From NCBI GenBank assembly GCA_017515475.1, contig JAFWFS010000027.1:829-64828 (forward strand): 64,000 nucleotides of DNA, written 5' to 3'. A program made the translations under genes and the position numbers. Positions 10,389 to 45,448 of this stretch are shown here, in pieces. Within the stretch, counting starts at the first letter, position 1; every line of letters starts with the position of its first letter. This stretch comes from Erysipelotrichaceae bacterium (GTDB lineage Bacteria > Bacillota_I > Bacilli_A > Erysipelotrichales > Erysipelotrichaceae). Below the pieces are notes generated by a model. It was not told where the DNA came from, did not search any database, and worked only from the letters and a program-made list of their open reading frames with translations.

Positions 10389-10865
10389 ATGGCAAATCAG
10401 CACAATTCTCTGGCTCATACCAGATGGATGTGCAAATATCACATCGTATTCATCCCGAAATACCGCAGGAAGATCATCTACAATCAGATCAGGAAGGACA
10501 TTTCCGGATATATCTCTACCCTGTGCAGATACAAGGGGGTAGAGATCATAGAGGGACATATGATGCCGGATCACGTCCATCTGGTATTATCCATTCCTCC
10601 CAAGATGGCGGTATCCGGCTTCATGGGATATCTGAAGGGAAAATCGTCTCTGATGATTTTCGAGAATCATTCCAACCTGAAATACAAGTTCGGCAACAGG
10701 AAGTTCTGGGCCGAAGGATATTATGTATCAACGGTCGGTCTGAATGAAGCCACGATCGTCAAGTATGTGCAGGATCAGGAGAAAGTCGACATAGCTTTGG
10801 ACAAACTGAACACAAAGGAATATGAAGATCCCTTCAGGAAACCGGCACAGACAAGACTCCTTTAG
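10389..10865 (+). CDS. tnpA: IS200/IS605-family Y1 (HUH) transposase
   Basis: 158 aa. The sequence begins MANQHNSLAHTRWMCKYHIVFIPKYRRK. It has the HUH motif PDHVHLVLSIPP and the catalytic tyrosine region FWAEGYYVSTVG. Confidence 0.95.
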   Translation: MANQHNSLAHTRWMCKYHIVFIPKYRRKIIYNQIRKDISGYISTLCRYKGVEIIEGHMMPDHVHLVLSIPPKMAVSGFMGYLKGKSSLMIFENHSNLKYKFGNRKFWAEGYYVSTVGLNEATIVKYVQDQEKVDIALDKLNTKEYEDPFRKPAQTRLL

Positions 10866-10998
10866 GAGTCAGGACCCAACAGGGGTAAACACAATAGAGC
10901 CTGAACTGTTTTCTGTTCAGGCAGCGCCTTGAGACGCAGTGGAGAGTAAAAAGCCTTACAGTCTTAGAGAAAACCACCCGTTTAACGGGTGGTAATTA

Positions 10999-12474
10999 TC
11001 AGTCTCTCCTATAAAGATCTCTGGTATAGACTTTATCCTTGACATCTTCCAAACAGCTGTCAAAGCGGTTTGCGATAATGGTTTGGGAGAGTTTTTTGAA
11101 TTTGCTGAGATTGTTGACGATCTTTGATCCGAAGAAGGTATCGCCGTCCGGGAGAGTCGGTTCATAGATGATGACTTCCGCTCCCTTGGCCTTGATACGT
11201 TTCATGACGCCCTGGATGGAAGACTGACGGAAATTGTCGGAATTGGATTTCATCGTCAGACGGTAGACACCGATAACGGTCTTATGTTCCATCGCTTTAT
11301 CATACTGGGCAGAGCCCATGTAGGCACCTGCCATTTCCAGAACCCGATCAGAGATGAAGTCTTTTCTTGTACGGTTGGATTCGACGATCGCTTCGATCAG
11401 ATTTTCCGGGACGTCTGCGAAGTTCGCCAGAAGCTGTTTGGTGTCTTTCGGCAGACAATAGCCTCCGTAACCGAAGGAAGGGTTGTTGTAGTGGGAACCG
11501 ATCCTTGGATCCAGGCAGACGCCGTCGATGATCGCCTTGGTATTCAGACCTTTGGTCTCGGCATAGGTATCTAGTTCGTTGAAGTAGGATACTCGTAATG
11601 CCAGGTAGGTGTTTGCGAAGAGCTTGACCGCTTCCGCCTCGGTCAGACCGATGATCAGGGTATCGATGTCTTCCTTGATCGCACCCTGTTTCAGCAAAGC
11701 CGCAAATTCGTTTGCCGCCTTGACGTTTTCTTCGCTGTTCAGATCCGTTCCGACGATGATACGGGACGGATAGAGGTTGTCGTACAGGGCCTTGGATTCT
11801 CTCAGGAATTCCGGCGAGAACAGGATGCGGTCGTCGTTTTTCTCTTTTCTGACTCTCTCGGTGAATCCTACCGGAATCGTCGACTTGATGACGATGTATG
11901 CTTTCCTGTTGTGCTGTCTGACCAGGTCGATGACCGCTTCGACAGCACTGGTATCGAAGTAGTTCTTCTGCGGATCGTAGTTGGTAGGAGCCGCAACCAC
12001 GACATAGTCGGCATCCTTGTATGCGTATTCTCCATCCAGTGTCGCTTCCAAATCGAGCGTTCTGTTTGCCAGATAGTCTTCCAGATAGTCGTCCTGGATT
12101 GGCGATTTCCTGTCGTTGATCATCCTGACTTTTTCTTCGATGATGTCGACGGCTCTGACTCTGTTGTGCTGGGCCAGCAGTACGGCGATCGACATGCCGA
12201 CATAGCCCGTTCCGGCTACGGCGATCTTTCTGCTGATGGCAGCGGCCTTTGTTTCCGGCGACTCTTTTTCTCTTAGATCATCAAAAGAGAAACCGAGCAC
12301 TTCCTGCAGATCTTCCAGCTGGCTGACGGAAGGCATGTAGGAACCGTTTTCGATCTTGGAGATCATCGCCCGGTTGATGCCGGTCTTTTCCGCCAGGTCG
12401 TTCTGAGACAGGTTCAGTTTCTCTCTTCTTTCTTTCGTTACTTTTGCAAGCAGTTCTTCTTTAATTCTGTTCAT
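10999..12474 (-). CDS. ugd: UDP-glucose 6-dehydrogenase with an N-terminal XRE-type helix-turn-helix domain (fusion)
   Basis: 491 aa. Residues 1 to about 65 form an HTH_XRE domain ([38 protein letters not shown]). The remainder is a typical roughly 390-aa Ugd. It shows [19 protein letters not shown], the catalytic cysteine region [14 protein letters not shown], and a C-terminal UDP-binding domain. Confidence 0.9.
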
Positions 12475-12552
12475 AGCATTTACCTCGTCATAATGTTATC
12501 AATTATAACGGAATTAAGCAATAGAATAATTAACAATGATGCAGATAATAAC

Positions 12553-12580
12553 AAAAAAACAGACATCTTTCATGCCTGTT
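12553..12580 (-). terminator. Rho-independent terminator ending the minus-strand four-gene operon (17419 to 12610)
   Basis: On the minus strand the sequence reads aacaggcat-gaaag-atgtctgtt followed by T7. This gives a 9-bp stem including one G-U pair. It lies 30 nt downstream of the GT2 stop. Confidence 0.75.
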
Positions 12581-12609
12581 CAATAGTGCAAATCGCTTTT
12601 TTCATTTGC

Positions 12610-13293
12610 TTATCTGTATTTCAGGATACAGTAGATCGCTCTTAATCCGTCCTTGAAGCCGATCTTCTTGCCTTCTTCGTTCGTTCTTGGATAGTAGGAG
12701 ATTGGAACTTCCTTGATTCGGATGCCTTTCTTGGCGATCTTGGCGGTGACTTCCGGTTCGAAACCAAAACGGTCTTCCTTCAGATCGATGGACTGGATTA
12801 CTTCTCTCTTGAAACATTTGTAACAGGTCTCCATGTCGGTCAGCTTCTCGCCCGTAAAGAGGTTGGAAAGTGTCGTCAGGAACCAGTTGGCCACCCGGTT
12901 CGCCAGATAGCCTTTTCTTTTCTGATTGAGATATCTGGAACCGTATACGACTTCCGCTTCGCCGTTGAAGATCTTTTCTACGACCAGCGGGTATTCGTTT
13001 GGATCGTATTCCAGATCGGCATCCTGGACGATGACGGCATCTCCTGTCGCATGAGCGAAGCCTGTTCTTAAGGCTGCGCCTTTACCTTTATTCACGTCGT
13101 GGTATACAATCTGGGAAACCAGAGGTTTTACGTCCTTTTCCAGTATCGCTCTGGTGTTGTCCTTGGAACAGTCGTCGACGACGATGATTTCCTTGTTTTC
13201 TACCGGTGATCCCAGAACTTTTTTCACCAGATCAAGGATGCTGTTTTCTTCGTTGTAGCAGGGGATGACAATGCTTAATATTTTAACTTTCAT
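12610..13293 (-). CDS. GT2 glycosyltransferase, soluble DPM1/polyprenyl-phosphate sugar synthase type
   Basis: 227 aa. Motifs include LSIVIPCYNEENSI, VVDDCSKDNT, KGKGAALRTG and IVQDADLEYDP. It resembles dolichyl-/polyprenyl-phosphate mannose or glucose synthases and has no C-terminal TM segments. Confidence 0.8.
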   Translation of the reverse strand: MKVKILSIVIPCYNEENSILDLVKKVLGSPVENKEIIVVDDCSKDNTRAILEKDVKPLVSQIVYHDVNKGKGAALRTGFAHATGDAVIVQDADLEYDPNEYPLVVEKIFNGEAEVVYGSRYLNQKRKGYLANRVANWFLTTLSNLFTGEKLTDMETCYKCFKREVIQSIDLKEDRFGFEPEVTAKIAKKGIRIKEVPISYYPRTNEEGKKIGFKDGLRAIYCILKYR

Positions 13294-13304
13294 AATACAC
13301 TTAC

Positions 13305-14903
13305 TTACCTTTCTGCAAATATTTTATCCCAACTATCGATATCAATAACATATATTGAAACATCAGCAATTACTATTTTATTCGATTTTATTTTTTCTAA
13401 CAATGGGATAAATTCCTTCTCTTCAGCATTCTGGGCAACATCTCTTGTCAATACATAAAAATAAGTCAAGTTTGATGGCTTTTCGTTTTCGTGCAAATAA
13501 ATGCGATCGTACTCGACGATGAATAATCCTCTCTCCTCATCATAAGCAATCGTGGTATTTTTGTTTTTTCCTTTAGATATCAGTTCTAACACTTTGTAAT
13601 ATCTCATGGTTGTATATCCATAGGATAAACCTTCCTGATTCAGGATATCGTTGATTTGAATCAACTTTTCCTTTGATTTTTCTCCCATAGGGAATGTGTA
13701 GAATATCGTTCTTAAAGAAAGGGAAACGACAAGTATCAGCACGGAAAGTTGGAGGATCATCTGAGGCTGTTTGTTCATCCTGTCAGTGAATAGGAATGCA
13801 TTGATTAGAAAAATAGATAGAATTCCGTTAAAGAGATATCTCTGAACGGAAGTCTTGAATAGAGTATATTGAAAAACACAAATGAACAAGACAACTGAGC
13901 TGCTCCACAACAGCAGCTTTCTGCTTTCATCAAGCGTAACTGTTGAACCGGATTTTGATCTGCGTAAATGATATGAAAATAGCGGGAAAATGATCAATGA
14001 TAAGGAGAACGCAAGCCTTATCAGAGCGAATAATCCTTTAGAGCTGAGAAGGGAAACATTGGTAGGGTTAAAATAAAAAACTTTTAAATAATCAGAAAAA
14101 AGATTATGGCTGAGATTTGAAAGTATACGATCCGTATCCGCGAAAATAAAGCGGTATACATACTGGTTTAAAGAAAATGCGGTTGAATTATAATGCCGAT
14201 ATACAAACAATCCGGCAATCGTAAAAATGATGACAAGAGATAAAACGATCAAGTCATCTTTGTTTATCTTTTTTTGGCAATAAAGCAGATATAAAAACCC
14301 CAACAGAACAGGAATGGTGCACAACGCTACTGTAACAACGCCATTAGCCGAACTCCAAAGGCAGAACACAATCAACAGAACCGAATTAAGATGAGTATTA
14401 CGATGATTTCGTATGTTGACAATACAGGAAAGCTCTCCTAAAAAGCAAACGAATCCGATGCCATAACACAGTAGATGGTGCAACAGATTATCTCCAGCAT
14501 ATGTGTATATGAAGAGCGATGTAATACTACAGAACAGAAGCCTGCTGCCGATGTTTTCATAGAGAGATTTTGAAAGCCTATATAGAGTACATAAATAGAT
14601 GAAAAAGAAAAATAACATCCCGACCTGATTAGAAAAAAAAGATACTCCAAAGAGTTTTACCAGAGGTGCCATGATGATATTCGAACCAAAAGGAACCACA
14701 TAATAATACACATAATCTGGATTTACTATTGAGTGAGATTTTAAGGATGCTTCTGCCCAAAAAACACCTTCAATAAAATCATACAGATCGTAGAAATTGA
14801 TGCCTTCAGAGAAAGAAAAAACACAAAAAAAACCGCTGATCGCAATCAAAAAAAAGATAATATGAATAATAAACATATTGATATTCGGTTTGATTCGAGA
14901 CAT
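13305..14903 (-). CDS. Polytopic integral membrane protein of unknown function (candidate extracytoplasmic glycosyltransferase or polymerase)
   Basis: 532 aa. It is very hydrophobic for about 400 aa, with many F/L/I-rich segments, and ends in a soluble tail of about 130 aa. The gene is AT-rich. A shared motif pattern with ORF 28872..30479 suggests the same family (...GSNIIMAPLVKLFG versus NTNLVFAPLFLITN). Confidence 0.6.
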   Translation of the reverse strand: MSRIKPNINMFIIHIIFFLIAISGFFCVFSFSEGINFYDLYDFIEGVFWAEASLKSHSIVNPDYVYYYVVPFGSNIIMAPLVKLFGVSFFSNQVGMLFFFFIYLCTLYRLSKSLYENIGSRLLFCSITSLFIYTYAGDNLLHHLLCYGIGFVCFLGELSCIVNIRNHRNTHLNSVLLIVFCLWSSANGVVTVALCTIPVLLGFLYLLYCQKKINKDDLIVLSLVIIFTIAGLFVYRHYNSTAFSLNQYVYRFIFADTDRILSNLSHNLFSDYLKVFYFNPTNVSLLSSKGLFALIRLAFSLSLIIFPLFSYHLRRSKSGSTVTLDESRKLLLWSSSVVLFICVFQYTLFKTSVQRYLFNGILSIFLINAFLFTDRMNKQPQMILQLSVLILVVSLSLRTIFYTFPMGEKSKEKLIQINDILNQEGLSYGYTTMRYYKVLELISKGKNKNTTIAYDEERGLFIVEYDRIYLHENEKPSNLTYFYVLTRDVAQNAEEKEFIPLLEKIKSNKIVIADVSIYVIDIDSWDKIFAER

Positions 14904-14916
14904 AGAAAGCTATCTC

Positions 14917-15858
14917 CTATAAGATCGTTTTCCTAAAATAATCAATAGTTTTCTTGAGACCTTCATCCAACGGAACCGTGGGTTCCCAGCCAAGTTCTTT
15001 TTTGGCGAGATCAATAACTGGTTTTCTCTGGGTAGGATCATCTTGCGGAAGCGGAAGGTAAACGATTTTGGATTTTGAACCTGTATGTTCGATGACTTTT
15101 TCTGCCAACTGCAGCATGGTGAATTCTCCAGGATTTCCCAGATTGACCGGTCCGGTAAACCCATCTCTGGAGTTCATCATTCGGATCAAGGCTTCTACTA
15201 GATCGTCAACATAACAGAACGATCTGGTCTGTGAACCATCGCCATAAATTGTGATATCTTCACCTTTGAGAGCCTGGACGATAAAGTTGGAAACGACTCT
15301 TCCATCGTCGCCTCTCATGTTAGGACCATAGGTATTGAAAATACGGACTACTTTGATATCGACGCCATGCTGACGGTGATAGTCGAAGAACAAAGTTTCG
15401 GCAGCTCTCTTGCCCTCATCGTAGCAGGAACGGATACCGTTTGGATTGACATGCCCCCAGTAGGATTCGGGCTGCGGATGGACTTCCGGATCACCGTAAA
15501 CTTCGGAGGTTGATGCCTGCAGGATTCTGGCATGGCATCTCTTGGCTAGACCCAATGTATGTAAAGCACCAATAAAGGAAGTTTTTATCGTTTTGATTGG
15601 GTCATATTGGTAGTGAATCGGTGACGCCGGACACGCTAAATTGTATATTTGGTCGCATTCAACATAAATGTCTTCAAGAATATCTTTACGGATGAATTCA
15701 AAATAAGGATTATCTAAAAGATGTCTGATATTGTCTTTTTGCCCAGTAAAAAGGTTATCCATGCATATGACATCGCAACCATCATTTAATAGTCTTTCGC
15801 ATAGGTGTGAACCGATAAAACCGGCTCCACCTGTTACTAATACCCTTGTTTTATTCAT
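14917..15858 (-). CDS. UDP-glucuronate decarboxylase (UDP-xylose synthase, UXS type SDR)
   Basis: 313 aa. It is nearly colinear with eukaryotic and bacterial UXS. Motifs include [97 protein letters not shown] and [16 protein letters not shown]. Confidence 0.9.
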
Positions 15859-15883
15859 AATATATACCTCTATAATTAATATA

Positions 15884-17419
15884 TCATTTATTTGTTTCTG
15901 GAAGTTCTGCAGAAATCTTAACTACCAAATACTGTCCGATCTTTGCGATGCTGTTTTCTTTTGGCCAGACATTCATCTGTGCATATTCATCAGATGAAAC
16001 GACTTTCAAGTATTCATCGTATTCTACATCTTTAAAATCAAGACCAAAATAGTTCATAAAGTATTTCTGTCTGTTGTATGTTACACCCGTTCTGGTTTTC
16101 CAGAATACCGGATTGTCAGGCAAGTCAACTGCATAACGGTAGGTCTTGATCTGGCTTCGCAGAATTGTATCGTCGAAGAAGCCTGCAACAATAACCGGAG
16201 TCTCGTTTGGTTTGTATTCTTCATGATGTTCAATGTCGTATACAACCTGTGACATTTGGCTATATGTGTAGTCGTAGGACAATCTGAAACAATGGAAAGT
16301 CGCATTGGCTGATACGATATATGTCCATACTAAGAAGATGCACAGAAATGCCGTAATCGGTTTTATAATCCTATTTTGATCCGGTTCGATCATAGCAATT
16401 AAGAACGGGATAATTAGAATGTTCTGATAGGTCATCGATGTTGAATACTCTGCATTTGGCATGATCAGGCACACAACATTGGAAGCTACCGGAATCAGTG
16501 CAATGCAGAAAAGCGAAAGCAGTATAACACGTATATTCTTTTCTCTAAATCGTTTGAAAACAGTGACCATAAGTAGAATGAATATGATCAAATAGATAAT
16601 ATGGCGCTGTAGGATCCGGTCAGAGAAAAATCGGAAGTACTGTTTATAGGAATTAACAATACTTGAAGGCAAGGAGAAAATGATCCTTCCGACAGAAAGA
16701 TCAGCCATTCTGGAGCTGGCGTGCAAACCGGTTACCAGATATAGCAATTGTAAGGCAATATAGTATAATACAGCACCTGCAAAAGCGCAGACCAGTGCTT
16801 TTGTTGCTTTTTCAAGAATCTTTCTGAGATCCATTCCTTGGCGCAGGGATATTACCATTGTCATCAGAAACAAAGCGGCAGAAAAACCTAAATAGCTTTG
16901 ATAGATTCCCAGACCGCAGGTAATACAGATAACGGGAATCAACCAGCCGAAAACGCCTTTGTATTGAAAAACCGCATAAACATAGAAGGCAGAGAGTGTC
17001 AAAGCAATTGCGTAAGGGAAAGCCACGGCATTATATGTAAAATGGATTATCGATGCCGGAGTGACGGCCATTGTTAATGATAAAAGAGCTGCACTGAGAC
17101 AAGATTCCATTTTCCAGGTCTTCATGATGATATAGGATGATAGCCAGGTCAGGAAACAGTATCCCAGAACCGCCGGAAGAGGCATGACAATATTGCCGGA
17201 TATACTGAAAAGAATTGCCAAAAGCCATCTTCCACATCCGGAAATGATCCATGTTGCATTGCTGAAAGCGGTCAATCCTTCAATAATTCCGTCCGCATTG
17301 GTATATCCGTAAATAAAATAGAGATTATATGCCAATATACCGGCCATCGTGGAAAGACCTAATCCAATCAAGGCACATGAATATGATTCTTTTATTCTAA
17401 AGAATGATAGTTTGTTCAC
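15884..17419 (-). CDS. Polytopic membrane protein, possibly GtrII-like glucosyltransferase family
   Basis: 511 aa with about 11-13 hydrophobic spans followed by a soluble C-terminal domain. The N-terminal region [11 protein letters not shown]...GCGRWLL resembles serotype-converting GtrII-type GT-C proteins. This is recognition by eye only. Confidence 0.5.
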
Positions 17420-17507
17420 ATAAGAAAGTATAGCTTATTCATACGCTTTTAACAAATTATTTAAATATGCTTTAAAACAAACGATGATTCTTTGATATTA
17501 TATTTAT

Positions 17508-18983
17508 ATGTTTACAACGATATTAAAAACTATTGTTGAGCCAGAAAAAAGAAAAACGGGAACAATCAACCTGCTAATTACTTTTTTATATTTAAGCATA
17601 CACGCATTTGTCGCTTTTCATCACGAACACTGGATGGACGAGGCACAGGCATGGATCATTGCCAGCAACCTATCGATAAAAGAAATATTTGCTATCCTGT
17701 GTACGGAAGGCCATCCTTGCCTCTGGTTTCTTTTTTTGGTACCGTTTGCCAGATTCGGCTTCTCCTATCGGTACTTTAGTCTGATCAGTCTTCTGATAAT
17801 GGGGATTGGGTCGTTCATGTTTCTGCAGAAATCCCCTTTCAGTCTAGTTGTGAAAATCGGAGTTCATCTTAGTAGTGTTTTCCTTTTTTATAATCCGGTT
17901 GTATGTCGAAGTTATTCCCTAATTGCGCTGCTGATCATCCTGCTTGCTTCTTATTATCGGGATAGGGAATCGCATCCGCTTTTCTACGGTTTTCTTATTG
18001 TCTTACTGTTTCAAAGTCATGTTCTTGTTTACGGGTTAGGGATCGGTCTTGTGGCTGTTCTGATTCTGGATTATTGTCATAGCAAAAAAAGAAAGATACT
18101 GATCGGCAGTTTTGTTTCGATTGTGGGGCTGATTCTTTCGATCGCCCAGATTTTTCCCAGAGCAGGCTACGCTTCAGGAATTGATACATCAGCTGGAGGC
18201 ATATTCAGCAAGATCAATTTTACGAACATTATGAATGGTTTGCGCTATTTTGCGTATACATCCTGGGGATGGACATCTCAGTCGACTTGGCTGTTTCCTT
18301 ATTTGATTCTCGTTGGATTGATTGCCGCCATTTTCCTGTTTACTACAATAAACAAAAACTGGAAACAGCAGCTGCCTGTTATCATTGTTGCTATCTGCTC
18401 AATCGGCCTGTTCTTCGGTGTCGTTATCCTTGTCTATACACCACATGCACAGATGGCGTCGATTCTGATGATGATTGTTCTTTTAATCATGTGGGTGCTA
18501 TATGAAAATGATACACATCTAAATCTCAGACTGACGGTCGTGCTGTTTCTCGCGGTATCGTCGTTTTTGACTTTCATCCCTGCTCAGTCGAGCATGCGCA
18601 GCGATATTTACGGAAAGTATTCTTACAGCAAAGACGCAGCCGAATCACTTGGCAGCCGTCTCAAAGCAGGGGATACCGTTCTGATAGAAAACAGTACCTG
18701 TAGTTCGGCTGTATATGCATACCTTGCTTCAGAAACGAAAGACGTCTTCTTCTATGATCTCAACAATGAAACTGAGTATGTTTTTCATCGAATGGGAATA
18801 GAATACAGGCAGATTGGTAGAAATGATTTGGAAGAATCAATTCGGAAACATACTAAAAACGGAGGTTCCGTATACCTCTTATTGAATTCAGAGGTGGAAG
18901 ATGACCGATTAATATTGATATATACAAATCAGAACGAAAAACAAAGATGGAATGAGTCTTATTATATATATGAAGTGATATAA
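17508..18983 (+). CDS. GT-C-like polytopic membrane glycosyltransferase (PMT_2/ArnT-like motifs)
   Basis: 491 aa. After TM1 comes HEHWMDEAQAW (D-E at 17637-17642), followed by EGHPCLWF. This is the DE...hPPL pattern of ArnT/PMT-type GT-C enzymes. It has many TM segments and a soluble C-terminal domain of about 120 aa. Confidence 0.6.
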   Translation: MFTTILKTIVEPEKRKTGTINLLITFLYLSIHAFVAFHHEHWMDEAQAWIIASNLSIKEIFAILCTEGHPCLWFLFLVPFARFGFSYRYFSLISLLIMGIGSFMFLQKSPFSLVVKIGVHLSSVFLFYNPVVCRSYSLIALLIILLASYYRDRESHPLFYGFLIVLLFQSHVLVYGLGIGLVAVLILDYCHSKKRKILIGSFVSIVGLILSIAQIFPRAGYASGIDTSAGGIFSKINFTNIMNGLRYFAYTSWGWTSQSTWLFPYLILVGLIAAIFLFTTINKNWKQQLPVIIVAICSIGLFFGVVILVYTPHAQMASILMMIVLLIMWVLYENDTHLNLRLTVVLFLAVSSFLTFIPAQSSMRSDIYGKYSYSKDAAESLGSRLKAGDTVLIENSTCSSAVYAYLASETKDVFFYDLNNETEYVFHRMGIEYRQIGRNDLEESIRKHTKNGGSVYLLLNSEVEDDRLILIYTNQNEKQRWNESYYIYEVI

Positions 18984-18995
18984 AGGAAGGTAAAT

Positions 18996-20546
18996 ATGAA
19001 AAAAGCGATAATTATTGGGGCAGGCCCTGCTGGTCTTACGGCTGCATATGAACTACTGGACAAATCAAAAGACTATGAAGTAACCGTTCTGGAAGAGTCG
19101 GACAAATTCGGCGGAATTTCCCGTACTGTCAACTATAAAGGAAATAGAATGGACATGGGCGGACACCGTTTTTTCTCCAAAGATCCTGATGTCAATAAAT
19201 GGTGGGACAAAATGCTTCCGGTACAGGGGCATCCTTCCATGGACGACATCAAGCTGGGAAGGACACCGATCTTGGAAGAAGGTGGACCGGATCCGGAAAA
19301 AACGGATAAAGTCATGTTGAAAAGAAACAGACTGTCCAGGATTTTCTTTAAACAGAAGTTTTTCGACTATCCTATCTCCCTGAAATTCGAAACCATCAAG
19401 AATATGGGCTTCTTTATGACAATGATTGTTGGTTTCAGCTATCTGAAATCGATTTTCTTCAAACTTCCGGAAGACAATCTGGAGAACTTCTACATAAATC
19501 GTTTCGGAAAGAAACTCTACAGCATGTTTTTCGAGAGATACACGGAAAACCTCTGGGGCAGACATCCGAGTCAGATCTCTGCCGAATGGGGTGCACAGCG
19601 TGTCAAGGGATTATCAATTATCGCGATTCTGAAAGACATGTTTGGAAAGCTTTTCCACGTCAAGAACAGAAAGGTTGAAACATCGCTGATCGAGACATTC
19701 TCCTATCCGAAACTTGGTCCTGGCGAAATGTGGGATCTGACGGCCGAAGAAGTCAAGAAAATGGGCGGCACGATCATTCAGAATGCTCAGGTCACGAAGG
19801 TCCATAAGAAGGACAATCTGCTGACGGGCGTAACATACGTGAAAGACGGTAAAGAGCATGATCTAAAAGGGGATATCGTGATTTCATCCATGCCTTTAAA
19901 GGATCTGGTATGCGGGATGAACGACGTTCCGCAGGATATGCACGATATCGCTGCGGGCCTTCCATACAGAGACTACAAAACGGTAGGTGTTCTGGTAAAA
20001 CATCTGGATCTTCCAAACAAGACAAGTATCCCGACCTTAGGCAATATCGTTCCGGACAACTGGGTCTATGTTCATGATACGAATGTCGACATGGGTAGAT
20101 TTCAGGTCTATAACAACTGGTCTCCATATCTGGTAAAGGATGTTGAGCATACCGTATGGATCGGTCTGGAATACTTCTGTGATGAGGGTGATGAAATGTG
20201 GAACATGTCGGATGACGATTTCGCTCATAAGGGAATCAAGGAAATGATCACCATGAAGATGATCAAGTCGGAAGATGATGTTCTGGATTATCATGTCGAA
20301 TTCGTCAAGAAGGCTTATCCGGCTTATTTTGATACGTATGACAGGATTGAGGATCTTAGAGCCTATCTGAATACCATCCCGAATCTGTATTGTGTTGGCA
20401 GAAACGGTCAGCATCGGTATAACAACCTTGATCATTCCATGGTTACGTCCTTTGAATCGGTAAAGAATATTTTAAATGGCATTACAGATAAGACGAATAT
20501 CTGGAACGTTAACACCGAGAAAGAATATCATGAGCAAAAATCATAG
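18996..20546 (+). CDS. FAD/NAD(P)-binding oxidoreductase (amine-oxidase/UDP-galactopyranose-mutase-like fold)
   Basis: 516 aa. The N-terminal dinucleotide fold is [21 protein letters not shown]...[14 protein letters not shown], and GGHRFF follows. A C-terminal [15 protein letters not shown] motif is typical of this flavoprotein family. Confidence 0.65.
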
Positions 20547-22011
20547 TTTCTCTTTAGATAAACTTCTTGTTTTTTTATCTATTCTATATGTAACGATACC
20601 GGTTTTAGTTTTCTTTTTTGGCTGGTTAAAAGAAGCCGTGGCTTTATTTGCCGCTGTTCCTTTTTTCTTTTTCGTATATTTTGTTTGTAAGGACATTATT
20701 GAAACCGAAACAAAGCTTTTCACTAAAGAAACATATATCTATTGGATCATCGCAATCGCTGTAATTTGCATTTGGGTTTATTTTTCAGGGATAGGTGCTT
20801 TCTCCTTTCAAAACGGCGATCATTGGGTTAGAAATCCTATCTACAGAGACTTGTGTTCTTATCGGTGGCCGGTAATCTACGATCTATCCAAAGAGCCTGC
20901 TTTTGTTCAATCTATTACAGGGTCTGATCCGGTAGCGTTTTCTTATTACTTTACGTTTTGGCTGGTTCCAGCTCTAATCTCAAAAGTGTTTGGATTAAGC
21001 GAACTGGGATGCAACATAATACTGTTTTTATGGTCGGTAACGGGTCTGCTGCTGATTCTTTACAATATGAACAGAATTATCGGAAAGTGTTCTGTCGGCA
21101 GTTTACTGATGCTTGTTTTTTTCAGCGGTATGGATATCTTGAGATGTGTCTACTATGGGAAACCTTATCAATTTATTGAACATATTGAGTGGTGGGGAGA
21201 CTTGTACCGTATACAGTATTCTTCAAATACAACACAGCTTTATTGGGTCTTTAATCAATCAATTCCTCTTTGGTTGATAATTTGTCTGACATACCAACTG
21301 CAGTCAAATAAGTATTTAGGTGCGTTGTATGCATTATCATTTGCTTACTCACCATGGGCGATATTCGGAGTCATACCTATCGCACTTGTGGGGAGTTTTT
21401 CAAAAAAACAGAACATATGTCAAGTATTTAATTTGATTAATATCATTACGACTTTATTGACCGCCGGCATCTATGGCTTGTTCTATGTTGCCAGTTCAGG
21501 AAGTTCCGGAGGTATAGGAACGACCTTGTCGTATTACAGGACCAGACTTTTCGGGTTTTTGATTGATTATTTCATATTTGTTCTTACTGAATTTATTCTG
21601 TACTGGCTGTTTGTTTATAAAGAGAAAAAGAACGATAAATACTTCTGGATCGTTTCGATGGAGCTTCTATTGTTTCCTATGGTTTGGATGAGAGACGGAA
21701 ACTTCACGATGAGAGCTTCCATTCCTGCGCTTTTTATTTTCATGTTATATATCATAGAAACAATGAATCGCATCGAAACGAAAAGCAAAATCGTTCTTAC
21801 TGCTATGTTGCTGATTGGATCTTTGACCCCGATCAGCGAAATAAACAGAAGCATTAAAAACACCTTAATCGGTAATTACGATAATGAAGAAGAAATATAC
21901 AGTTTTGGAAACATTCAGACTCGAAACGAAGCAAGAATAAAGATAGTTAAAGATCAGTTTTTCATATATGATTATAATGAAAGTATTTTCTTTAAGTCTT
22001 TAGGAAAATGA
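20530..22011 (+). CDS. Polytopic membrane protein (candidate polymerase or GT-C); function unknown
   Basis: About 493 aa counting from the ATG at 20530 ([15 protein letters not shown]...). It has at least 10 hydrophobic spans. The start overlaps the upstream flavoprotein gene by 17 nt. The track start at 20476 is unlikely because it lies deep inside the upstream gene. Confidence 0.55.
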
Positions 22012-22050
22012 CGAATGAATTCATATAATAAAGATGGAGCATAGTTATTT

Positions 22051-23016
22051 ATGGAAAAAATAAGCAATAGAATAGGACTTTCAATCATTGTCCCCTGTTA
22101 TAACGAAGAAGAAGCTCTTCCAATTTTTTATGAAGAAGCAACAAGTGTTTTACGGTCAATTGGGATTAATTATGAACTGATTCTGGTCAATGACGGATCA
22201 AAAGATAAAACACTAGAAATCATGAAAGAGCTATCTGATAGAGATAATCATGTAATTTATCTTTCTTTTTCCCGTAATTTCGGCAAGGAATCCGCAATGT
22301 ATGCCGGTTTATGTAACGCAAAAGGAGACTATGTAGCCATAATGGATGCCGATATGCAGGATCCTCCTTCGCTTTTGCCGCAGATGATCGATATTCTTGA
22401 AACACAGGACTATGATTCTGTCGCAACCAGAAGAGCGACCAGAAAAGGTGAATCAAAGATCAGAAGCTTTTTTGCCAGATCCTTTTACAAGATAATTAAC
22501 AGGATATCCGATGCCGATATTGTAGATGGCGCCAGAGACTTCCGACTGATGAAAAGAAAAATGGTTGATTCCATTGTCTCCATGAGCGAATACAATCGTT
22601 TTTCCAAAGGCATCTTCGGCTGGGTTGGCTTCAAGACATATTGGCTGCCTTTTGAGAATGTGGAACGAGTTGCAGGAGTTACTAAATGGAGTTTCTGGGG
22701 TTTATTCAAATATGCAGTCAACGGCATTATCAACTTTTCACAGACGCCGCTGGTGATCGCCTCCTTTTTCGGCATGTTCATGACCGCGGTGGCGTTCATG
22801 ATGTTGGCATTCATTGTTGTCCGGAAGCTGATTTTTGGCGATCCGGTTGCCGGATGGGCTTCCACGATGTGTGTTATCATATTTATTGGCGGTATTCAGC
22901 TGTTCTGTCTGGGCATCATGGGGCAATACATCGGTAAGATGTACATGGAAACCAAGAACAGACCGCATTACATAATCTCCGAAACCAATAGAAAAGAAAC
23001 AGAAAAAATCAGGTAA
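22051..23016 (+). CDS. GT2 glycosyltransferase, GtrB/ArnC/CsbB type (polyprenyl-phosphate sugar synthase with 2 C-terminal TM helices)
   Basis: 321 aa. Motifs include LSIIVPCYNEEEAL, LVNDGSKDKT, FSRNFGKESA, IMDADMQDPP, two TM segments (LVIASFFGMFMTAVAFMMLAF and VIIFIGGIQLFCLGIMGQYIG), and the terminal motif RPHYII. Confidence 0.85.
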   Translation: MEKISNRIGLSIIVPCYNEEEALPIFYEEATSVLRSIGINYELILVNDGSKDKTLEIMKELSDRDNHVIYLSFSRNFGKESAMYAGLCNAKGDYVAIMDADMQDPPSLLPQMIDILETQDYDSVATRRATRKGESKIRSFFARSFYKIINRISDADIVDGARDFRLMKRKMVDSIVSMSEYNRFSKGIFGWVGFKTYWLPFENVERVAGVTKWSFWGLFKYAVNGIINFSQTPLVIASFFGMFMTAVAFMMLAFIVVRKLIFGDPVAGWASTMCVIIFIGGIQLFCLGIMGQYIGKMYMETKNRPHYIISETNRKETEKIR

Positions 23017-23020
23017 AAAA

Positions 23021-23974
23021 ATGAGAAAGAAGATCTCCATTGTTACGCCATGCTACTTCAACGGCATGAACCTTCCTGAAACATACAGTGTTATTAAAAA
23101 CACTGTGTTTGATGTATGCAAAAACTACGATTTTGAATGGATCTGCGTCGATGACGGCAGCGGCGATAATCAGCTGGAAGTCATGCAAAAACTGCAAAAA
23201 AAAGATGACAAAATCAAGATTGTCAAGCTTTCACGTAATTTTGGAGAATTTAGAGCCATTGTAGCCGGCATGTCTGTTGCACAAGGTGATGCAGTCGCCG
23301 TTATCAGTGCCGATCTTCAGGATCCGCCTGAACTGATTCCTGATCTTTTGAAATTATGGGAAAAGGGTAGCTTGGTCAACCTGGCAGTCAGAAAAGAAAG
23401 AGAAGAGAGTTTTCTGAAGAATTTCTTTGCGGATACCTATTATAAACTGGTAAGAAAATGGGTCATTGCAGATTATCCAAAGAGAGGTTTTGACTTCTTC
23501 TTGATCGATAAGAAAGTCGTAAAACAACTGGTAGAAATGCAGGAAAAAAATTCCTCGATCTATCTGCAACTGATCTGGCTTGGCTATAAACCACAGACCA
23601 TTGAGTATACTAGAAGAAGCAGAGAAAAAGGGAAATCCATGTGGACGTTTAAAAAACGTCTGGATCTCTTTATCGATACTTTTGTCGTTTTCTCGCATAA
23701 GCTGATCCGGTTCATTATTTCGATCGGTTTATTGTTTGCTTTACTGGGAATGATTCTGGCAGTATACTTCATCATCGATAAGTTAACCAGCAACGTCATG
23801 CAGGGCTGGACTTCGTTGATCGTGCTGATATTGGTGGTATCCGGCATCATGATGGTGATGATGGGCCTTCTGGGAGAGTATATTTGGAGAAATCTCGACG
23901 AAACCAGAAGAAGACCTTTGTATGTGATTGAAGAAGTGATCACTAGGGAGAAAAAGAATGATTCTCGCAAATAA
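23021..23974 (+). CDS. Second GtrB/ArnC-type GT2 (polyprenyl-phosphate sugar synthase-like)
   Basis: 317 aa. Motifs include [40 protein letters not shown], two C-terminal TM helices, and GLLGEYIWR...RRPLYVI. Confidence 0.82.
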
Positions 23975-25055
23975 TCTGAAAAGACAGTATGACCTGTTTG
24001 CGGAAGAATACCGGCAGAAAGCGGTTGAAGTCCTGGATTCCGGCTGGTACGTTTTAGGCAATGAAGTAAAGGAATTCGAAAACGAATTCGCTTCCTATAT
24101 CGGTTCAAAACACTGTGTCGGTGTTGCTTCGGGAATGGATGCCCTGCAGATCGCATTTCGGATCATCGGCATTCACGAAGGCGATGAAGTAATTGTCTGT
24201 TCTAATGCGTATATTGCCTGTGCCATGGGCATTACAATGAACGGCGGTACACCGGTTTTTGTAGAACCGGATGCATACGATAACCTTGATGCTGAAAAGA
24301 TTGGGGAGAAGATAACAGATAAAACAAAAGCCATTCTGGCAGTTCATCTTTATGGCCAGTCCTGTGATATGGACAAAATCTGTGAGATTGCCAGGAAATA
24401 TAACCTAAAAGTGATCGAAGACTGTGCTCAGGCACATGGAACAAAGTGGAAGAAAAACAAGTGTGGCAGTATTGGCGACATGGCCTGCTGGAGTTTTTAT
24501 CCGACCAAAAATCTTGGTGCATTCGGTGATGGAGGAGCAATCACGACCGACGATGAAGACTATGCCAATGAAGCCAGAGTCATCCGCAACTACGGATCAA
24601 AAAAACTGCACTACGAAAATGATATTATTGGTATGAATTCCCGTCTGGATGAACTGCAGGCCGGTCTTTTAAGGGTCAAGCTGAAACATCTGGATGAACT
24701 TAATGAAGAGAGGATTCAGATCGCAGACAGATACAGCAACGAGATTGTCAATCCACTGGTTAGACCTCTTCAGACCAGACCAGGCTCAAACAACGTTTAT
24801 CATCAGTATGTGATTCATTGCGATAGAAGAGATGATCTGATGAACTATTTGAAAGAGAATGATATCGGAACGATTATTCACTATCCGATCCCGCCACATC
24901 TGCAGAAAGCCTATGCCTATCTGGGATATCATAAAGGAGACTATCCGATTGCGGAGAGATATGCAAATGAAGTTCTATCTTTGCCGATGTACAACGGCAT
25001 GAGTAAAGAGGAACTGGATTACGTCATAGAAAGAATAAATGATTTTAAGGAATAA
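23958..25055 (+). CDS. fdtB: DegT/DnrJ/EryC1-family sugar aminotransferase (FdtB/QdtB-like, NDP-3-keto-6-deoxyhexose 3-aminotransferase)
   Basis: 365 aa. Motifs include [38 protein letters not shown] and [19 protein letters not shown] (PLP lysine). It overlaps the upstream GT2 by 17 nt and is followed 2 nt later by an FdtA-type isomerase. The 3-position specificity is inferred from that partner. Confidence 0.75.
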
Positions 25056-25057
25056 AA

Positions 25058-25471
25058 ATGTCGTTAAGAGATAAGTGCCCGATTCTGGAATTCAAGGATC
25101 AGGGAGATGAAAGAGGGAAACTGGTTGTAATCGAAGGGGAGAAGTCGATTCCTTTTGCGATACAGCGTGTTTTCTACATCTATGGGTCGGATGCGACAGT
25201 TGTCAGAGGACAGCACGCCAACAGAGAATCGGAATTTGTTCTGATCAATGTTGCCGGCAGCAGCAAAGTCCGTATTACTGACGGTAAAGAGGAGTTTGTT
25301 GTAGAGTTGAACAGGCCGATGACGGGCATCTATATCCCGAAAATGGTCTGGAAGGATATGTATGATTTTTCCGATGACTCTGTTCTGCTTGTGCTTGCCA
25401 GTACGCACTATGATGGAAACGAATATATCAGAGACTATGACGCATATTTAGAGGAAATCAAGAATGGATAA
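25058..25471 (+). CDS. fdtA: FdtA/WxcM-type cupin, dTDP-4-keto-6-deoxyhexose 3,4-ketoisomerase
   Basis: 137 aa. Motifs include DERGKLVVIE...IPFAIQRVFYIYG...VRGQHANRE...LINVAGSSKV and LVLASTHYDGNEYIRDYDAYL. The size and motifs are typical of FdtA/QdtA. Confidence 0.8.
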   Translation: MSLRDKCPILEFKDQGDERGKLVVIEGEKSIPFAIQRVFYIYGSDATVVRGQHANRESEFVLINVAGSSKVRITDGKEEFVVELNRPMTGIYIPKMVWKDMYDFSDDSVLLVLASTHYDGNEYIRDYDAYLEEIKNG

Positions 25472-27005: not shown

Positions 27006-27040
27006 AGATTGTTATATAATTTCTCAATAGGGTATAGATC

Positions 27041-28870: not shown

Positions 28871-28871
28871 C

Positions 28872-30479: not shown

Positions 30480-30499
30480 ACCGCTGAAAGGCGGTTTTT
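30478..30499 (+). terminator. Rho-independent terminator separating the membrane-protein run from the kds operon
   Basis: aaaccgc-tgaaag-gcggttt followed by tt, overlapping the stop codon of the preceding gene. Confidence 0.7.
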
Positions 30500-30530
30500 G
30501 TATGTAAAGATAATATCGTTTATAATAGGA

Positions 30531-32049: not shown

Positions 32050-32058
32050 AGGATTAAG

Positions 32059-33024: not shown

Positions 33025-33025
33025 T

Positions 33026-45437: not shown

Positions 45438-45448
45438 GAGTCTTCGCT

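What the first reader, a model, noticed from the sequence alone, without database searches (positions are those of the whole stretch)
10999..17419. Arn-like module built on UDP-xylose: Ugd, UXS, a DPM1-type GT2 and two polytopic membrane proteins
A tight minus-strand operon has intergenic gaps of 25, 13 and 11 nt. It encodes a 511-aa polytopic protein, a textbook UDP-glucuronate decarboxylase, a 532-aa polytopic protein and a soluble DPM1-like GT2. It ends at a clean terminator (12553-12580). A UDP-glucose dehydrogenase gene follows in the same orientation.

Established knowledge: Ugd then UXS yields UDP-xylose. DPM1/ArnC-type GT2 enzymes charge polyprenyl phosphate. GT-C enzymes use such lipid donors outside the membrane. 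The Arn pathway (Ugd-ArnA-ArnB-ArnC-ArnT) is the paradigm.

Inference: this module may make a polyprenyl-phosphate pentose (xylose or a derivative) for extracytoplasmic decoration. I am not aware of a characterised bacterial undecaprenyl-P-xylose decoration system.
Basis: partly seen in the sequence, partly recalled or inferred. Interest (0 to 1): 0.65.

Follow-up and report, generated by a model that had tools for sequence, protein, structure and literature searches.

The report
Predicted lipid-linked xylose wall-decoration module
This gut bacterium carries a compact gene set that most likely makes UDP-xylose, loads the xylose onto a membrane lipid carrier and attaches it to cell-surface sugars outside the cell, a route nobody has shown in bacteria but which related sequences suggest is widespread.

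Summary

- **SDR (313 aa):** a true UDP-xylose synthase. It is about 60% identical to human UXS1 (E 2e-124, against ArnA 1e-28) and keeps all six UXS active-site residues.
- **GT2 (227 aa):** a polyprenyl-phosphate glycosyltransferase without transmembrane helices. Its best solved relatives are ArnC, DPMS and GtrB.
- **Both polytopic proteins:** GT-C fold. The 511-aa protein matches Pfam GtrII. The 532-aa protein has no Pfam family; its AlphaFold model hits ArnT, STT3 and ALG9.

New evidence comes from 77 non-redundant loci carrying orthologues of this GT2 (59-91% identical, G+C 24-61%). UXS lies within 6 kb in 14 of them and often abuts the GT2. A galactokinase/GalU-type fusion that would make a UDP-sugar takes that position in 11. 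Minimal cassettes such as UXS-GT2-GtrA-GT-C and UXS-GT2-YfhO exist.

The module is therefore best read as an undecaprenyl-phosphate-xylose synthase with xylosyl-transferring GT-C enzymes. It follows Arn-like logic but is not an Arn member. No paper describing such a system was found.

Caveats:
- The sugar identity rests on gene neighbourhood only.
- No flippase was found in the window.
- ugd is a separate transcription unit and is fused to an HTH domain.

Verdict: a new variant of a known kind.

The parts
17497..17526 (-). Promoter-like site (TTAATA-18-TATAAT) upstream of the operon, in the 88-nt divergent intergenic region
   Evidence: 10 of 12 matches, the joint best site in 10-19 kb. Consensus match only.
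15884..17419 (-). GtrII511: 511-aa polytopic GT-C glycosyltransferase of the GtrII family. Candidate transferase that uses the lipid-linked sugar outside the membrane.
   Evidence: Pfam PF14264, E 1e-22. AF2 model pLDDT 88.6. Foldseek top hits are all GT-C: STT3, PglB, AftB, Pmt4 (prob 0.91-1.0, E >= 5e-3). D43 is invariant in the first loop. Small family of 41 clusters.
14917..15858 (-). UXS: UDP-glucuronate decarboxylase (UDP-xylose synthase), 313 aa
   Evidence: phmmer against PDB: human UXS1 4gll/2b69, E 2e-124, about 60% identical over the full length. T117/S118/E119/Y146/K150/R278 correspond to hUXS1 T118/S119/E120/Y147/K151/R277.
13305..14903 (-). M532: 532-aa polytopic GT-C-fold protein with no Pfam family. 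It is the conserved partner of the GT2 and the likely Und-P-xylose-dependent transferase. It may also anchor the GT2 at the membrane.
   Evidence: No Pfam or NCBIfam hit. AF2 pLDDT 89.4, pTM 0.90. Foldseek: ArnT 5ezm E 2e-5, AglB, STT3, DPY19, ALG9 (TM 0.53), AftA. D39, D42 and E45 are invariant after TM1. hhalign to the GtrII511 family gives 91.6% probability. Always adjacent to the GT2 in relatives.
12610..13293 (-). GT2s: 227-aa GT2 polyprenyl-phosphate glycosyltransferase of DPM1/GacI type without TM helices. Predicted UDP-xylose:undecaprenyl-phosphate xylosyltransferase.
   Evidence: PF00535, E 2e-37. Best PDB hits: ArnC 3e-19, PfDPMS 5e-18, GtrB 1e-10. D91-A-D93-L motif matches PfDPMS 89-DADLQH-94. 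No TM segment. UXS neighbourhood statistics.
12549..12581 (-). Intrinsic terminator that ends the four-gene operon
   Evidence: GAACAGGCAT-GAAAG-ATGTCTGTTT followed by TTTTTTGTT.
10999..12474 (-). HTH-Ugd: UDP-glucose 6-dehydrogenase with an N-terminal XRE-type HTH domain. Supplies UDP-GlcA. Separate transcription unit.
   Evidence: PRK15057, E 3e-163, residues 83-490. TIGR03026 scores 305 bits, above its cut-off. PF01381 HTH_3, E 5e-16, residues 14-67.
10973..10993 (-). Terminator after ugd
   Evidence: 9 pairs, 6 G-C, followed by a T run; perfect 10-nt arms.
17508..18983 (+). M491: 491-aa polytopic protein, first gene of the divergent operon. Tentative further user of the same lipid donor.
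   Evidence: No Pfam hit. In L040 a 28%-identical homologue directly follows UXS-GT2s. In L099 a 47%-identical homologue shares an operon with a GT2s orthologue. Fold not tested. hhalign to M532 is negative.

Best explanation
This is a carrier-lipid ('three-component'-type) glycosylation module in which the sugar is xylose. The proposed steps are:

1. **Ugd** oxidises UDP-glucose to UDP-glucuronate. Inferred from homology.
2. **UXS** decarboxylates UDP-glucuronate to UDP-alpha-D-xylose. Strong homology, with all catalytic residues present.
3. **The 227-aa GT2** is held at the inner face of the membrane by amphipathic interface helices, and possibly by its always-adjacent partner M532. It transfers xylose to undecaprenyl phosphate to give Und-P-beta-xylose. 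The family assignment comes from homology; the sugar is inferred from conserved gene neighbourhood.
4. **The lipid is flipped** by a protein not encoded here. Relatives use GtrA.
5. **The GT-C enzymes M532 and probably GtrII511** transfer xylose from Und-P-xylose onto wall glycopolymers outside the membrane. A likely acceptor is the rhamnose-containing, ABC-transporter-exported polysaccharide encoded at 44-64 kb. Inferred.

GT2 enzymes invert, and so do all known GT-C enzymes, so the predicted product is an alpha-xylosyl branch.
For: **UXS.** E 2e-124 to human UXS1. The next functional classes score no better than 1e-44, and all six active-site residues are conserved.

**GT2s.**
- Nearest solved relatives are ArnC, DPMS and GtrB, and the DADL motif is present.
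- A DPMS truncation lacking its TM domain still reaches the membrane and is active (PMC5526996). The lack of TM helices is therefore compatible with the proposed function.

**M532 and GtrII511.** Confident AF2 models match only GT-C enzymes among the meaningful hits. Both have invariant acidic residues in the first loop.

**Pairing of M532 and GT2s.**
- The two genes are adjacent, 1-11 nt apart, in 8 of the 11 related loci examined.
- In a ninth (L010) a 51-nt gap separates them, and in a tenth (L014) they are about 1.9 kb apart.
- GT2s is 65-88% identical across these loci; M532 is only 34-48% identical.

**Neighbourhood of GT2s orthologues (77 non-redundant loci).**
- UXS (at least 50% identical) lies within 6 kb in 14, often overlapping or fewer than 70 nt away.
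- A galactokinase-like/GalU-like fusion lies within 6 kb in 11.
- GtrA lies within 6 kb in 18.
- Among the 16 loci with at least 6 kb on both sides, 7 have UXS or the fusion.
- UXS-linked orthologues are scattered over two of the three main clades and span 24-61% G+C.
- Extended SDRs are the top family among 138 soluble neighbours, at 16 members. No other nucleotide-sugar enzyme recurs apart from the kinase/uridylyltransferase fusion.

**Minimal cassettes and full modules.**
- UXS-GT2s-GtrA-methyltransferase-GT-C occurs in L076; L081 has the same gene order, with its fourth ORF not annotated.
- UXS-GT2s-YfhO occurs in L061, flanked by unrelated genes.
- L019 has GT-C-GT2s-GtrA-membrane protein-Ugd-UXS in one string.
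Against: - No biochemical data exist. Donor specificity of polyprenyl-phosphate GT2s cannot be read from sequence.
- Several Erysipelotrichaceae loci (L008/L015, L012, L014, L016) have the M532-GT2s pair with no UXS within 6-10 kb. One clade of GT2s orthologues shows no UXS link at all.
- No GtrA-like or other dedicated flippase was found in the 64-kb window (single-query tblastn).
- ugd is separated from the operon by a terminator.
- GtrII511's link to xylose rests only on operon membership. Its homologues sit as close to a UGM-like flavoprotein as to UXS.
- Foldseek E-values for GtrII511 are modest (5e-3 and weaker).
Confidence: 0.6

Rival explanations
1. The same carrier-lipid machinery operates, but the GT2 loads a common hexose (Glc, GlcNAc or Gal) onto Und-P. 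UXS serves a different, cytoplasmic xylosyltransferase of the large glycan locus.
For: - All characterised short or GtrB-type enzymes in Gram-positives use UDP-Glc or UDP-GlcNAc, for example GacI.
- The window holds many other GT2, GT1 and GT4 genes that could use UDP-Xyl.
- Some M532-GT2s pairs have no UXS nearby.
Against: - UXS abuts GT2s orthologues in compact cassettes that contain no other glycosyltransferase (L061, L076, L081).
- UXS is the only recurrent nucleotide-sugar enzyme among neighbours.
- The link spans distant lineages.
Confidence: 0.17
2. The lipid-linked sugar is a pentose derived from UDP-xylose rather than xylose itself. Candidates are L-arabinopyranose, made by an unlinked UDP-xylose 4-epimerase, or a furanose, made by the neighbouring UGM-like flavoprotein (18996-20546).
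For: - The kinase/uridylyltransferase fusion that replaces UXS in 11 loci resembles known sugar-1-kinase salvage routes. To my knowledge such a route is established for L-arabinose but not for D-xylose.
- In L099 the flavoprotein and its two flanking polytopic proteins share an operon with a GT2s orthologue.
Against: - No GalE-like epimerase lies in the operon or in the minimal cassettes. The extra SDR in L019 sits in a string whose gene lengths match rmlA/B/D/C; this was read from ORF sizes, not tested.
- The flavoprotein is absent from all 80 metagenome loci around GT2s orthologues.
- To my knowledge no UDP-xylofuranose pathway is known.
Confidence: 0.12
3. M532 is not a glycosyltransferase. 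It is a membrane anchor, activator or flippase for the TM-less GT2, analogous to GacJ, DPM3 or Ppm2. Only GtrII511 transfers the sugar.
For: - M532 and GT2s are strictly adjacent, with very short gaps.
- None of the Erysipelotrichaceae loci has a GtrA, whereas other lineages place GtrA right after GT2s.
- GacI needs GacJ.
Against: - M532 has the complete GT-C architecture with an extracytoplasmic C-terminal domain. It has invariant D39/D42/E45 at the position where GT-C enzymes hold catalytic acids.
- In several relatives M532 is the only GT-C next to GT2s (L008, L016).
- Anchoring and transfer are not mutually exclusive.
Confidence: 0.1

Closest known systems
Arn pathway of Gram-negative bacteria (Ugd, ArnA, ArnB, ArnC, ArnD, ArnE/F, ArnT)
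   Same: - It starts from UDP-GlcA made by Ugd.
- A C6 decarboxylation gives a UDP-pentose.
- An ArnC-type GT2 loads the pentose on Und-P; ArnC is the best PDB sequence hit of GT2s.
- A GT-C enzyme transfers it outside the membrane; ArnT is the best structural hit of M532.
   Different: - The decarboxylase is a true UXS that also reduces the 4-keto group, not ArnA.
- There is no transaminase, formyltransferase, deformylase or ArnE/F.
- The GT2 lacks ArnC's TM helices.
- The GT-C proteins do not match the ArnT/PMT_2 Pfam family.
- The host is a monoderm Erysipelotrichaceae, so lipid A cannot be the acceptor.
GacI/GacJ/GacK/GacL GlcNAc side-chain system of Streptococcus pyogenes, and related Scc/Csd systems of lactic acid bacteria
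   Same: - A short GT2 without TM helices makes Und-P-sugar, and a GT-C adds it to a rhamnose polysaccharide outside the cell (abstract of bioRxiv 10.1101/180810).
- The window lies beside a rhamnan-type locus with RgpF, an ABC transporter and RmlA/C.
- That locus even holds its own GacI/GacJ-like pair at 44769-45805.
   Different: - The predicted sugar is xylose, supplied by a dedicated UXS.
- The GT2's partner is a 532-aa GT-C rather than a small DUF2304 protein.
- No Wzx/GacK-type flippase is in the operon.
- GT2s is only about 28% identical to the window's GacI-like protein.
Phage and enterobacterial GtrA/GtrB/Gtr(type) O-antigen glucosylation
   Same: - The first gene belongs to the GtrII Pfam family.
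- Relatives of the module contain GtrA directly after the GT2.
   Different: - The window has no GtrA.
- The GT2 lacks the two C-terminal TM helices of GtrB.
- The donor is predicted to be UDP-Xyl rather than UDP-Glc.
Mycobacterial MtxS (Rv0539)/MtxT methylthioxylose capping, and PpgS/Rv3779
   Same: - A short GT2 makes a polyprenyl-phosphate-linked sugar for a GT-C.
[quoted passage not shown]
- MTX is the only xylo-configured lipid-linked pentose I know of.
   Different: - MTX is a 5-methylthio-xylofuranose that is not derived from UDP-xylose.
- No UXS is involved.
- The carrier is decaprenyl phosphate. This last point is from memory; the rest of the comparison is.
Dolichyl-phosphate D-xylosyltransferase (EC 2.4.2.32), an orphan activity reported in hen oviduct membranes in the 1970s (from memory)
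   Same: It catalyses the same predicted reaction type: UDP-xylose plus polyprenyl phosphate gives polyprenyl-phosphate xylose.
   Different: The activity is eukaryotic, no gene was ever assigned, and nothing links it to this family.

Membership tests
UDP-xylose synthase (UXS, EC 4.1.1.35) | Extended SDR with N-terminal GxxGxxG and the Thr/Tyr/Lys catalytic triad | tested here: met
   GGAGFIGSH at residues 9-17. T117, Y146 and K150 align with hUXS1 T118, Y147 and K151.
UDP-xylose synthase (UXS, EC 4.1.1.35) | UXS-specific Ser119, Glu120 and Arg277, which close the site and retain the 4-keto intermediate | tested here: met
   S118, E119 and R278 are aligned and identical. Their roles are taken from PMC3438964.
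UDP-xylose synthase (UXS, EC 4.1.1.35) | Closer to UXS than to ArnA-C, UDP-GlcA 4-epimerase, UAXS or the bifunctional U4kpxs | tested here: met
   418 bits to UXS1, against 115 (6zl6), 103 (ArnA) and 94 (UAXS). NCBIfam PRK11908 scores 127 bits, far below its cut-off of 294.
UDP-xylose synthase (UXS, EC 4.1.1.35) | Converts UDP-GlcA to UDP-Xyl | not testable with these tools
   Needs an enzyme assay.
Polyisoprenyl-phosphate glycosyltransferases (GT2: DPMS, GtrB, ArnC, GacI) | GT-A GT2 catalytic domain with a DXD metal motif | tested here: met
   PF00535, E 2e-37. D91-A-D93-L aligns with DADL of ArnC and with 89-DADLQH-94 of PfDPMS.
Polyisoprenyl-phosphate glycosyltransferases (GT2: DPMS, GtrB, ArnC, GacI) | Nearest characterised relatives are polyprenyl-phosphate GTs, with the alignment running through the interface-helix region | tested here: met
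   The top seven PDB sequences are ArnC, PfDPMS and GtrB. Residues 6-226 align with positions 25-249 of the PfDPMS chain.
Polyisoprenyl-phosphate glycosyltransferases (GT2: DPMS, GtrB, ArnC, GacI) | C-terminal TM helices (GtrB/ArnC/PfDPMS subtype) | tested here: not met
   No hydrophobic segment is present. The architecture is that of TM-less members of the DPM1 or GacI type. PfDPMS without its TM domain remains active.
Polyisoprenyl-phosphate glycosyltransferases (GT2: DPMS, GtrB, ArnC, GacI) | Uses polyprenyl phosphate as acceptor; identity of the donor sugar | not testable with these tools
   Only neighbourhood evidence points to UDP-Xyl.
GT-C glycosyltransferases | Polytopic fold shared with ArnT, STT3/PglB and ALG/Aft enzymes | tested here: met
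   M532: Foldseek prob 1.0 to ArnT, AglB, STT3, DPY19, ALG9 and AftA. GtrII511: STT3, PglB, AftB and Pmt4, prob 0.91-1.0. Both results rest on predicted models with pLDDT about 89.
GT-C glycosyltransferases | Conserved acidic residue(s) in the first extracytoplasmic loop | tested here: met
   M532 has invariant D39, D42 and E45 directly after TM1. GtrII511 has invariant D43.
GT-C glycosyltransferases | Transfer from a lipid-phosphate sugar donor | not testable with these tools
   Needs an assay or mutant analysis.
Arn (L-Ara4N lipid A modification) pathway | ArnA decarboxylase/formyltransferase, ArnB transaminase, ArnD deformylase and ArnE/F flippase | tested here: not met
   The SDR is UXS, not ArnA. 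The operon holds no aminotransferase, formyltransferase, deformylase or small SMR-like genes. This is an analogy only.
Gtr three-component O-antigen modification | GtrA flippase plus GtrB (GT2 with 2 TM helices) plus a Gtr-type GT-C | tested here: inconclusive
   The GT-C of the GtrII family is present. No GtrA is in the window. The GT2 is of the TM-less subtype. Relatives of the module do carry GtrA.

The most novel reading that the evidence does not exclude
The 227-aa GT2 represents a very large, uncharacterised orthologous group: at least 8000 protein clusters at E <= 1e-40, from gut, rumen, soil and freshwater samples. On this reading the group is the bacterial undecaprenyl-phosphate xylose synthase.

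- It would be fed either by UXS or by a previously undescribed xylose-1-kinase/UDP-xylose pyrophosphorylase fusion.
- It would serve many unrelated GT-C families: YfhO, GtrII, the new M532 family and others.
- Extracytoplasmic alpha-xylosylation of wall polymers would then be a widespread, so far unseen envelope modification.
- The orphan polyprenyl-phosphate xylosyltransferase reaction would gain its first gene.
Probability: 0.5. Interest if true: 0.72.

Novelty: new variant of a known kind. Interest (0 to 1): 0.6.

Why it matters
- **A new carrier-lipid sugar.** Carrier-lipid side-chain glycosylation sets phage receptors, antigenicity and antimicrobial-peptide resistance in many bacteria. 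To my knowledge the lipid-linked sugars known so far are Glc, GlcNAc, Gal, GalN/GalNAc, GalA, Man, Ara4N, Araf and MTX. A lipid-linked xylose donor would add a new sugar to that list.
- **A testable gene assignment.** It would assign a function to a very large 'GT2 family protein' orthologous group.
- **New GT-C families.** It would define at least one new GT-C family (M532).
- **A possible xylose salvage route.** It would point to a route from free xylose to UDP-xylose in gut and rumen bacteria that live on xylan.

The prediction can be tested directly with three recombinant proteins and LC-MS.

Tried and rejected
- **Arn membership** was rejected. The SDR is UXS, and no ArnB, ArnD, ArnE or ArnF is present.
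- **Sequence search of GtrII511 against PDB** found nothing. The fold had to be tested through an AF2 model instead.
- **The search for a GtrA-like flippase in the window** found none. The gaps at 25056-25463 and 45438-45801 hold an FdtA/WxcM-like ORF and a DUF2304 protein, not GtrA.
- **M491 could not be shown to relate to M532** (hhalign probability 11%).
- **The UGM-like flavoprotein as a core step** was rejected. It is absent from all 80 metagenome loci around GT2s orthologues.
- **Rfam** found no RNA family in 9.5-26 kb.
- **Inverted repeats in the promoter regions** were looked at as possible operators for HTH-Ugd. Nothing convincing appeared.
- **Literature searches** for Und-P-xylose, Xyl-P-Und, Dol-P-Xyl and similar terms returned nothing relevant. 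Only two reviews contain both 'undecaprenyl phosphate' and 'UDP-xylose'. Subscription-only papers are not covered by these searches.
- **Whole-genome presence of UXS** in the MAGs whose M532-GT2s pair lacks a nearby UXS could not be checked.

Full report
**1. Observation**

The ORF list gives minus-strand genes at these positions:

| Gene | Coordinates | Length |
|---|---|---|
| GtrII511 | 15884-17419 | 511 aa |
| UXS | 14917-15858 | 313 aa |
| M532 | 13305-14903 | 532 aa |
| GT2s | 12610-13293 | 227 aa |

- The gaps are 25, 13 and 11 nt.
- A hairpin with a T run at 12581-12549 on the minus strand ends the operon.
- ugd (10999-12474) follows in the same orientation and has its own terminator at 10993-10973.
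- The strongest promoter-like site of the region lies at 17526-17497 on the minus strand.
- The operon has 38-42% G+C. The core genes at 1-10 kb have 50-53%, and an IS200 transposase gene sits at the junction.
- Nine metagenome contigs carry the identical M532 protein. The three longest loci shown have the same gene order as the window.
- A 98%-identical GT2 is deposited from an Erysipelotrichaceae MAG. All genome hits of the M532 family are ruminant-gut Erysipelotrichaceae, Solobacterium or 'Eubacterium' MAGs.

**2. The parts**

*The SDR.*
- It scores 418 bits (E 2e-124, about 60% identity, full length) against human UXS1.
- The next classes score far lower: GalE-type epimerases 156, UDP-GlcA 4-epimerase 115, ArnA 103, UAXS 94.
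- hUXS1 has six active-site residues. Thr118, Tyr147 and Lys151 form the SDR triad. [quoted passage not shown]
- In the window protein these are T117, Y146, K150, S118, E119 and R278.

*Ugd.*
- It matches the E. coli-type Ugd model at E 3e-163 and passes the nucleotide-sugar dehydrogenase subfamily cut-off.
- It carries an extra, well-scoring XRE HTH domain at its N-terminus.

*GT2s.*
- It has no hydrophobic segment.
- Its best solved relatives are three ArnC sequences (E 3e-19 to 1e-18), Pyrococcus DPMS (5e-18) and GtrB (1e-10).
- The alignment runs through the region of the DPMS interface helices. A DADL motif sits where DPMS has 89-DADLQH-94.
- DPMS without its TM domain still targets the membrane and is active. 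A TM-less enzyme of this kind is therefore plausible.

*GtrII511.*
- It matches Pfam Glucos_trans_II.
- Its AF2 model (pLDDT 88.6) hits STT3, PglB, AftB, Pmt4, ArnT and DPY19.

*M532.*
- It has no Pfam or NCBIfam family.
- Its AF2 model (pLDDT 89.4, pTM 0.90) hits ArnT (E 2e-5), AglB, STT3, DPY19, ALG9 (TM 0.53) and AftA. All have probability 1.0, and transporters appear only at probability about 0.1.
- D39, D42 and E45, directly after TM1, are invariant in 32 family members.
- hhalign links the family weakly to the GtrII511 family (91.6% probability).
- A profile search of 1.84 billion representatives finds only 763 relatives at E <= 1e-3.

**3. Comparative evidence on what the GT2 loads**

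*The M532-GT2s pair in related loci.*
- M532 and GT2s are adjacent, 1-11 nt apart, in 8 of the 11 related loci examined.
- In L010 the gap is 51 nt, and in L014 the two genes are about 1.9 kb apart.
- GT2s is 65-88% identical across these loci, M532 only 34-48%.
- UXS (72-91% identical) is adjacent in L007, L010 and L011. L098 also has it, at 92% identity.

*The GT2s family is very large.*
- All 8000 scored candidates reach E <= 1e-40.
- At least 552 metagenome stretches encode relatives, and the 80 best are 59-79% identical.

*Neighbourhood counts in 77 non-redundant loci with an orthologue.*

| Neighbour within 6 kb of GT2s | Loci |
|---|---|
| UXS (at least 50% identical) | 14 |
| Galactokinase-like/GalU-like fusion (646-655 aa) | 11 |
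| GtrA | 18 |

- UXS is often overlapping or fewer than 70 nt from the GT2.
- Of the 16 loci with at least 6 kb on both sides, 7 have UXS or the fusion.
- The UXS-linked loci span 24-61% G+C and sit in two of the three main clades of a neighbour-joining tree of the GT2.
- The fusion-linked loci form mainly one subclade, next to UXS-linked members. L019 has both UXS and the fusion.

*Pfam census of soluble neighbours.*
- Among 138 soluble ORFs within 3 kb, extended SDRs rank first with 16 members.
- The only other recurrent nucleotide-sugar enzyme is the kinase/uridylyltransferase fusion.

*Minimal cassettes.*
- L076 has UXS-GT2s-GtrA-methyltransferase-GT-C. L081 has the same gene order, but its fourth ORF was not annotated.
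- L061 has UXS-GT2s-(124-aa ORF)-YfhO-methyltransferase, between acetyl-CoA synthetase/ETF genes and unrelated genes.
- L019 has 593-aa polytopic protein-GT2s-GtrA-522-aa polytopic protein-Ugd-UXS-fusion. This string lies downstream of four ORFs whose lengths match rmlA/B/D/C; that reading rests on ORF sizes only.

*Partner membrane proteins.*
- The polytopic partners fall into many unrelated sequence families.
- This is the pattern expected for one conserved donor synthase serving acceptor-specific GT-C enzymes.

**4. Mechanism**

- *Supported by sequence homology.* UDP-Glc is converted to UDP-GlcA by Ugd, then to UDP-Xyl by UXS. A polyprenyl-phosphate GT2 and two GT-C-fold proteins are present.
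- *Inferred.* The GT2 uses UDP-Xyl to make Und-P-Xyl. The lipid is flipped by an unknown protein. M532, and probably GtrII511, transfer xylose to a wall polymer.
- *Likely acceptor.* The rest of the window encodes a rhamnan-type, ABC-transporter-dependent polysaccharide locus: DUF2142, RgpF, ABC-2/ABC, RmlA and RmlC. One M532 homologue sits inside such a locus (L009).
- *Predicted linkage.* GT2 enzymes invert, and to my knowledge so do all known GT-C enzymes. The predicted linkage is therefore alpha.

**5. Weak points**

- The sugar identity is guilt by association.
- Some M532-GT2s pairs and one GT2s clade have no UXS nearby.
- No flippase was found in the window.
- GtrII511 is tied to xylose only by operon membership. 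Its homologues lie as near to a UGM-like flavoprotein as to UXS.
- That flavoprotein (18996-20546) and its flanking polytopic proteins share an operon with a GT2s orthologue in L099. It is absent from all 80 metagenome loci, so it is not a core step.

**6. Comparison and novelty**

- The logic parallels Arn and the Gac/Gtr three-component systems. Membership of Arn is excluded, and membership of Gtr is incomplete (see the membership table).
- The closest functional precedents are GacI/GacJ/GacL and the mycobacterial MtxS lipid donor.
- Eight full-text searches found no description of Und-P-xylose or an equivalent. Subscription journals are not covered.
- I rate this a new variant of a known kind. 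The machinery is familiar, the carrier-linked sugar is new, M532 is a new GT-C family, and the GT2 orthologous group is very large.

Noticed in passing
window 10999-12474 (-), residues 1-80: Ugd is fused to an N-terminal XRE-type helix-turn-helix domain (PF01381, E 5e-16). The Ugd genes next to GT2s orthologues in other lineages (443-447 aa) lack it. It may be a self-regulating enzyme/repressor. No convincing operator repeat was found.
   Followed up: partly
L030 10704-12653; L019 15280-17220; also L027, L029, L032, L034, L038, L039, L043, L045, L046, L051, L055: A 646-655-aa fusion of a galactokinase-like GHMP kinase and a GalU-like UTP-sugar-1-phosphate uridylyltransferase sits directly after GT2s orthologues. 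It takes the place of UXS, or follows Ugd-UXS in L019. It may be a salvage route from a free pentose (xylose?) to the UDP-sugar.
   Followed up: partly
window 17508-22011 (+): A 516-aa flavoprotein related to eukaryote-type UDP-galactopyranose mutases (PDB 3ute, E 4e-12; NCBIfam PRK07208) is flanked by two polytopic proteins without Pfam families (M491, M511b). The trio is conserved in L099, where it is followed there by a GT2s orthologue; L098 keeps only the flavoprotein (89% identical). This suggests a lipid-linked furanose branch.
   Followed up: partly
window 22051-25471 (+): Two tandem PgfS/ArnC-like GT2 genes, each with two C-terminal TM helices, are followed by a DegT aminotransferase and a small FdtA/WxcM-like ORF (25058-25471). 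This could be a second carrier-lipid branch for a 3-amino-3,6-dideoxyhexose, as proposed for Xanthomonas wxc (from memory).
   Followed up: no
window 13305-30479: Seven large polytopic proteins (491-609 aa) lie within 17 kb, and six of them have no Pfam family. That is an unusual density of putative GT-C enzymes. M513, M609 and M535 have homologues next to M532-GT2s or GtrII homologues in L012 and L098.
   Followed up: partly
window 44769-47841 (+): A GacI-like short GT2 (222 aa), a DUF2304 (GacJ-like) protein overlapping it by 7 nt and a DUF2142 membrane protein form a second, classical side-chain module at the head of the rhamnan-type locus.
   Followed up: partly
window 30498-33934 (+): KdsB-, KdsA-, KdsD- and KdsC-like genes (CMP-Kdo pathway) occur in what appears to be a monoderm Erysipelotrichaceae. 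This implies Kdo or a related ulosonic acid in a wall or capsular glycan.
   Followed up: no
L061 11700-12806; L076 1805-2320: SAM-dependent methyltransferase genes sit inside compact UXS-GT2s-GT-C cassettes. This hints at O-methylated xylose in those organisms.
   Followed up: no
window 10389-10865 (+): An IS200/IS605 Y1 transposase gene sits exactly at the boundary between core genes with 50-53% G+C and the glycan locus with 35-45% G+C. It is present at the same place in all five longer contigs that carry the locus.
   Followed up: no
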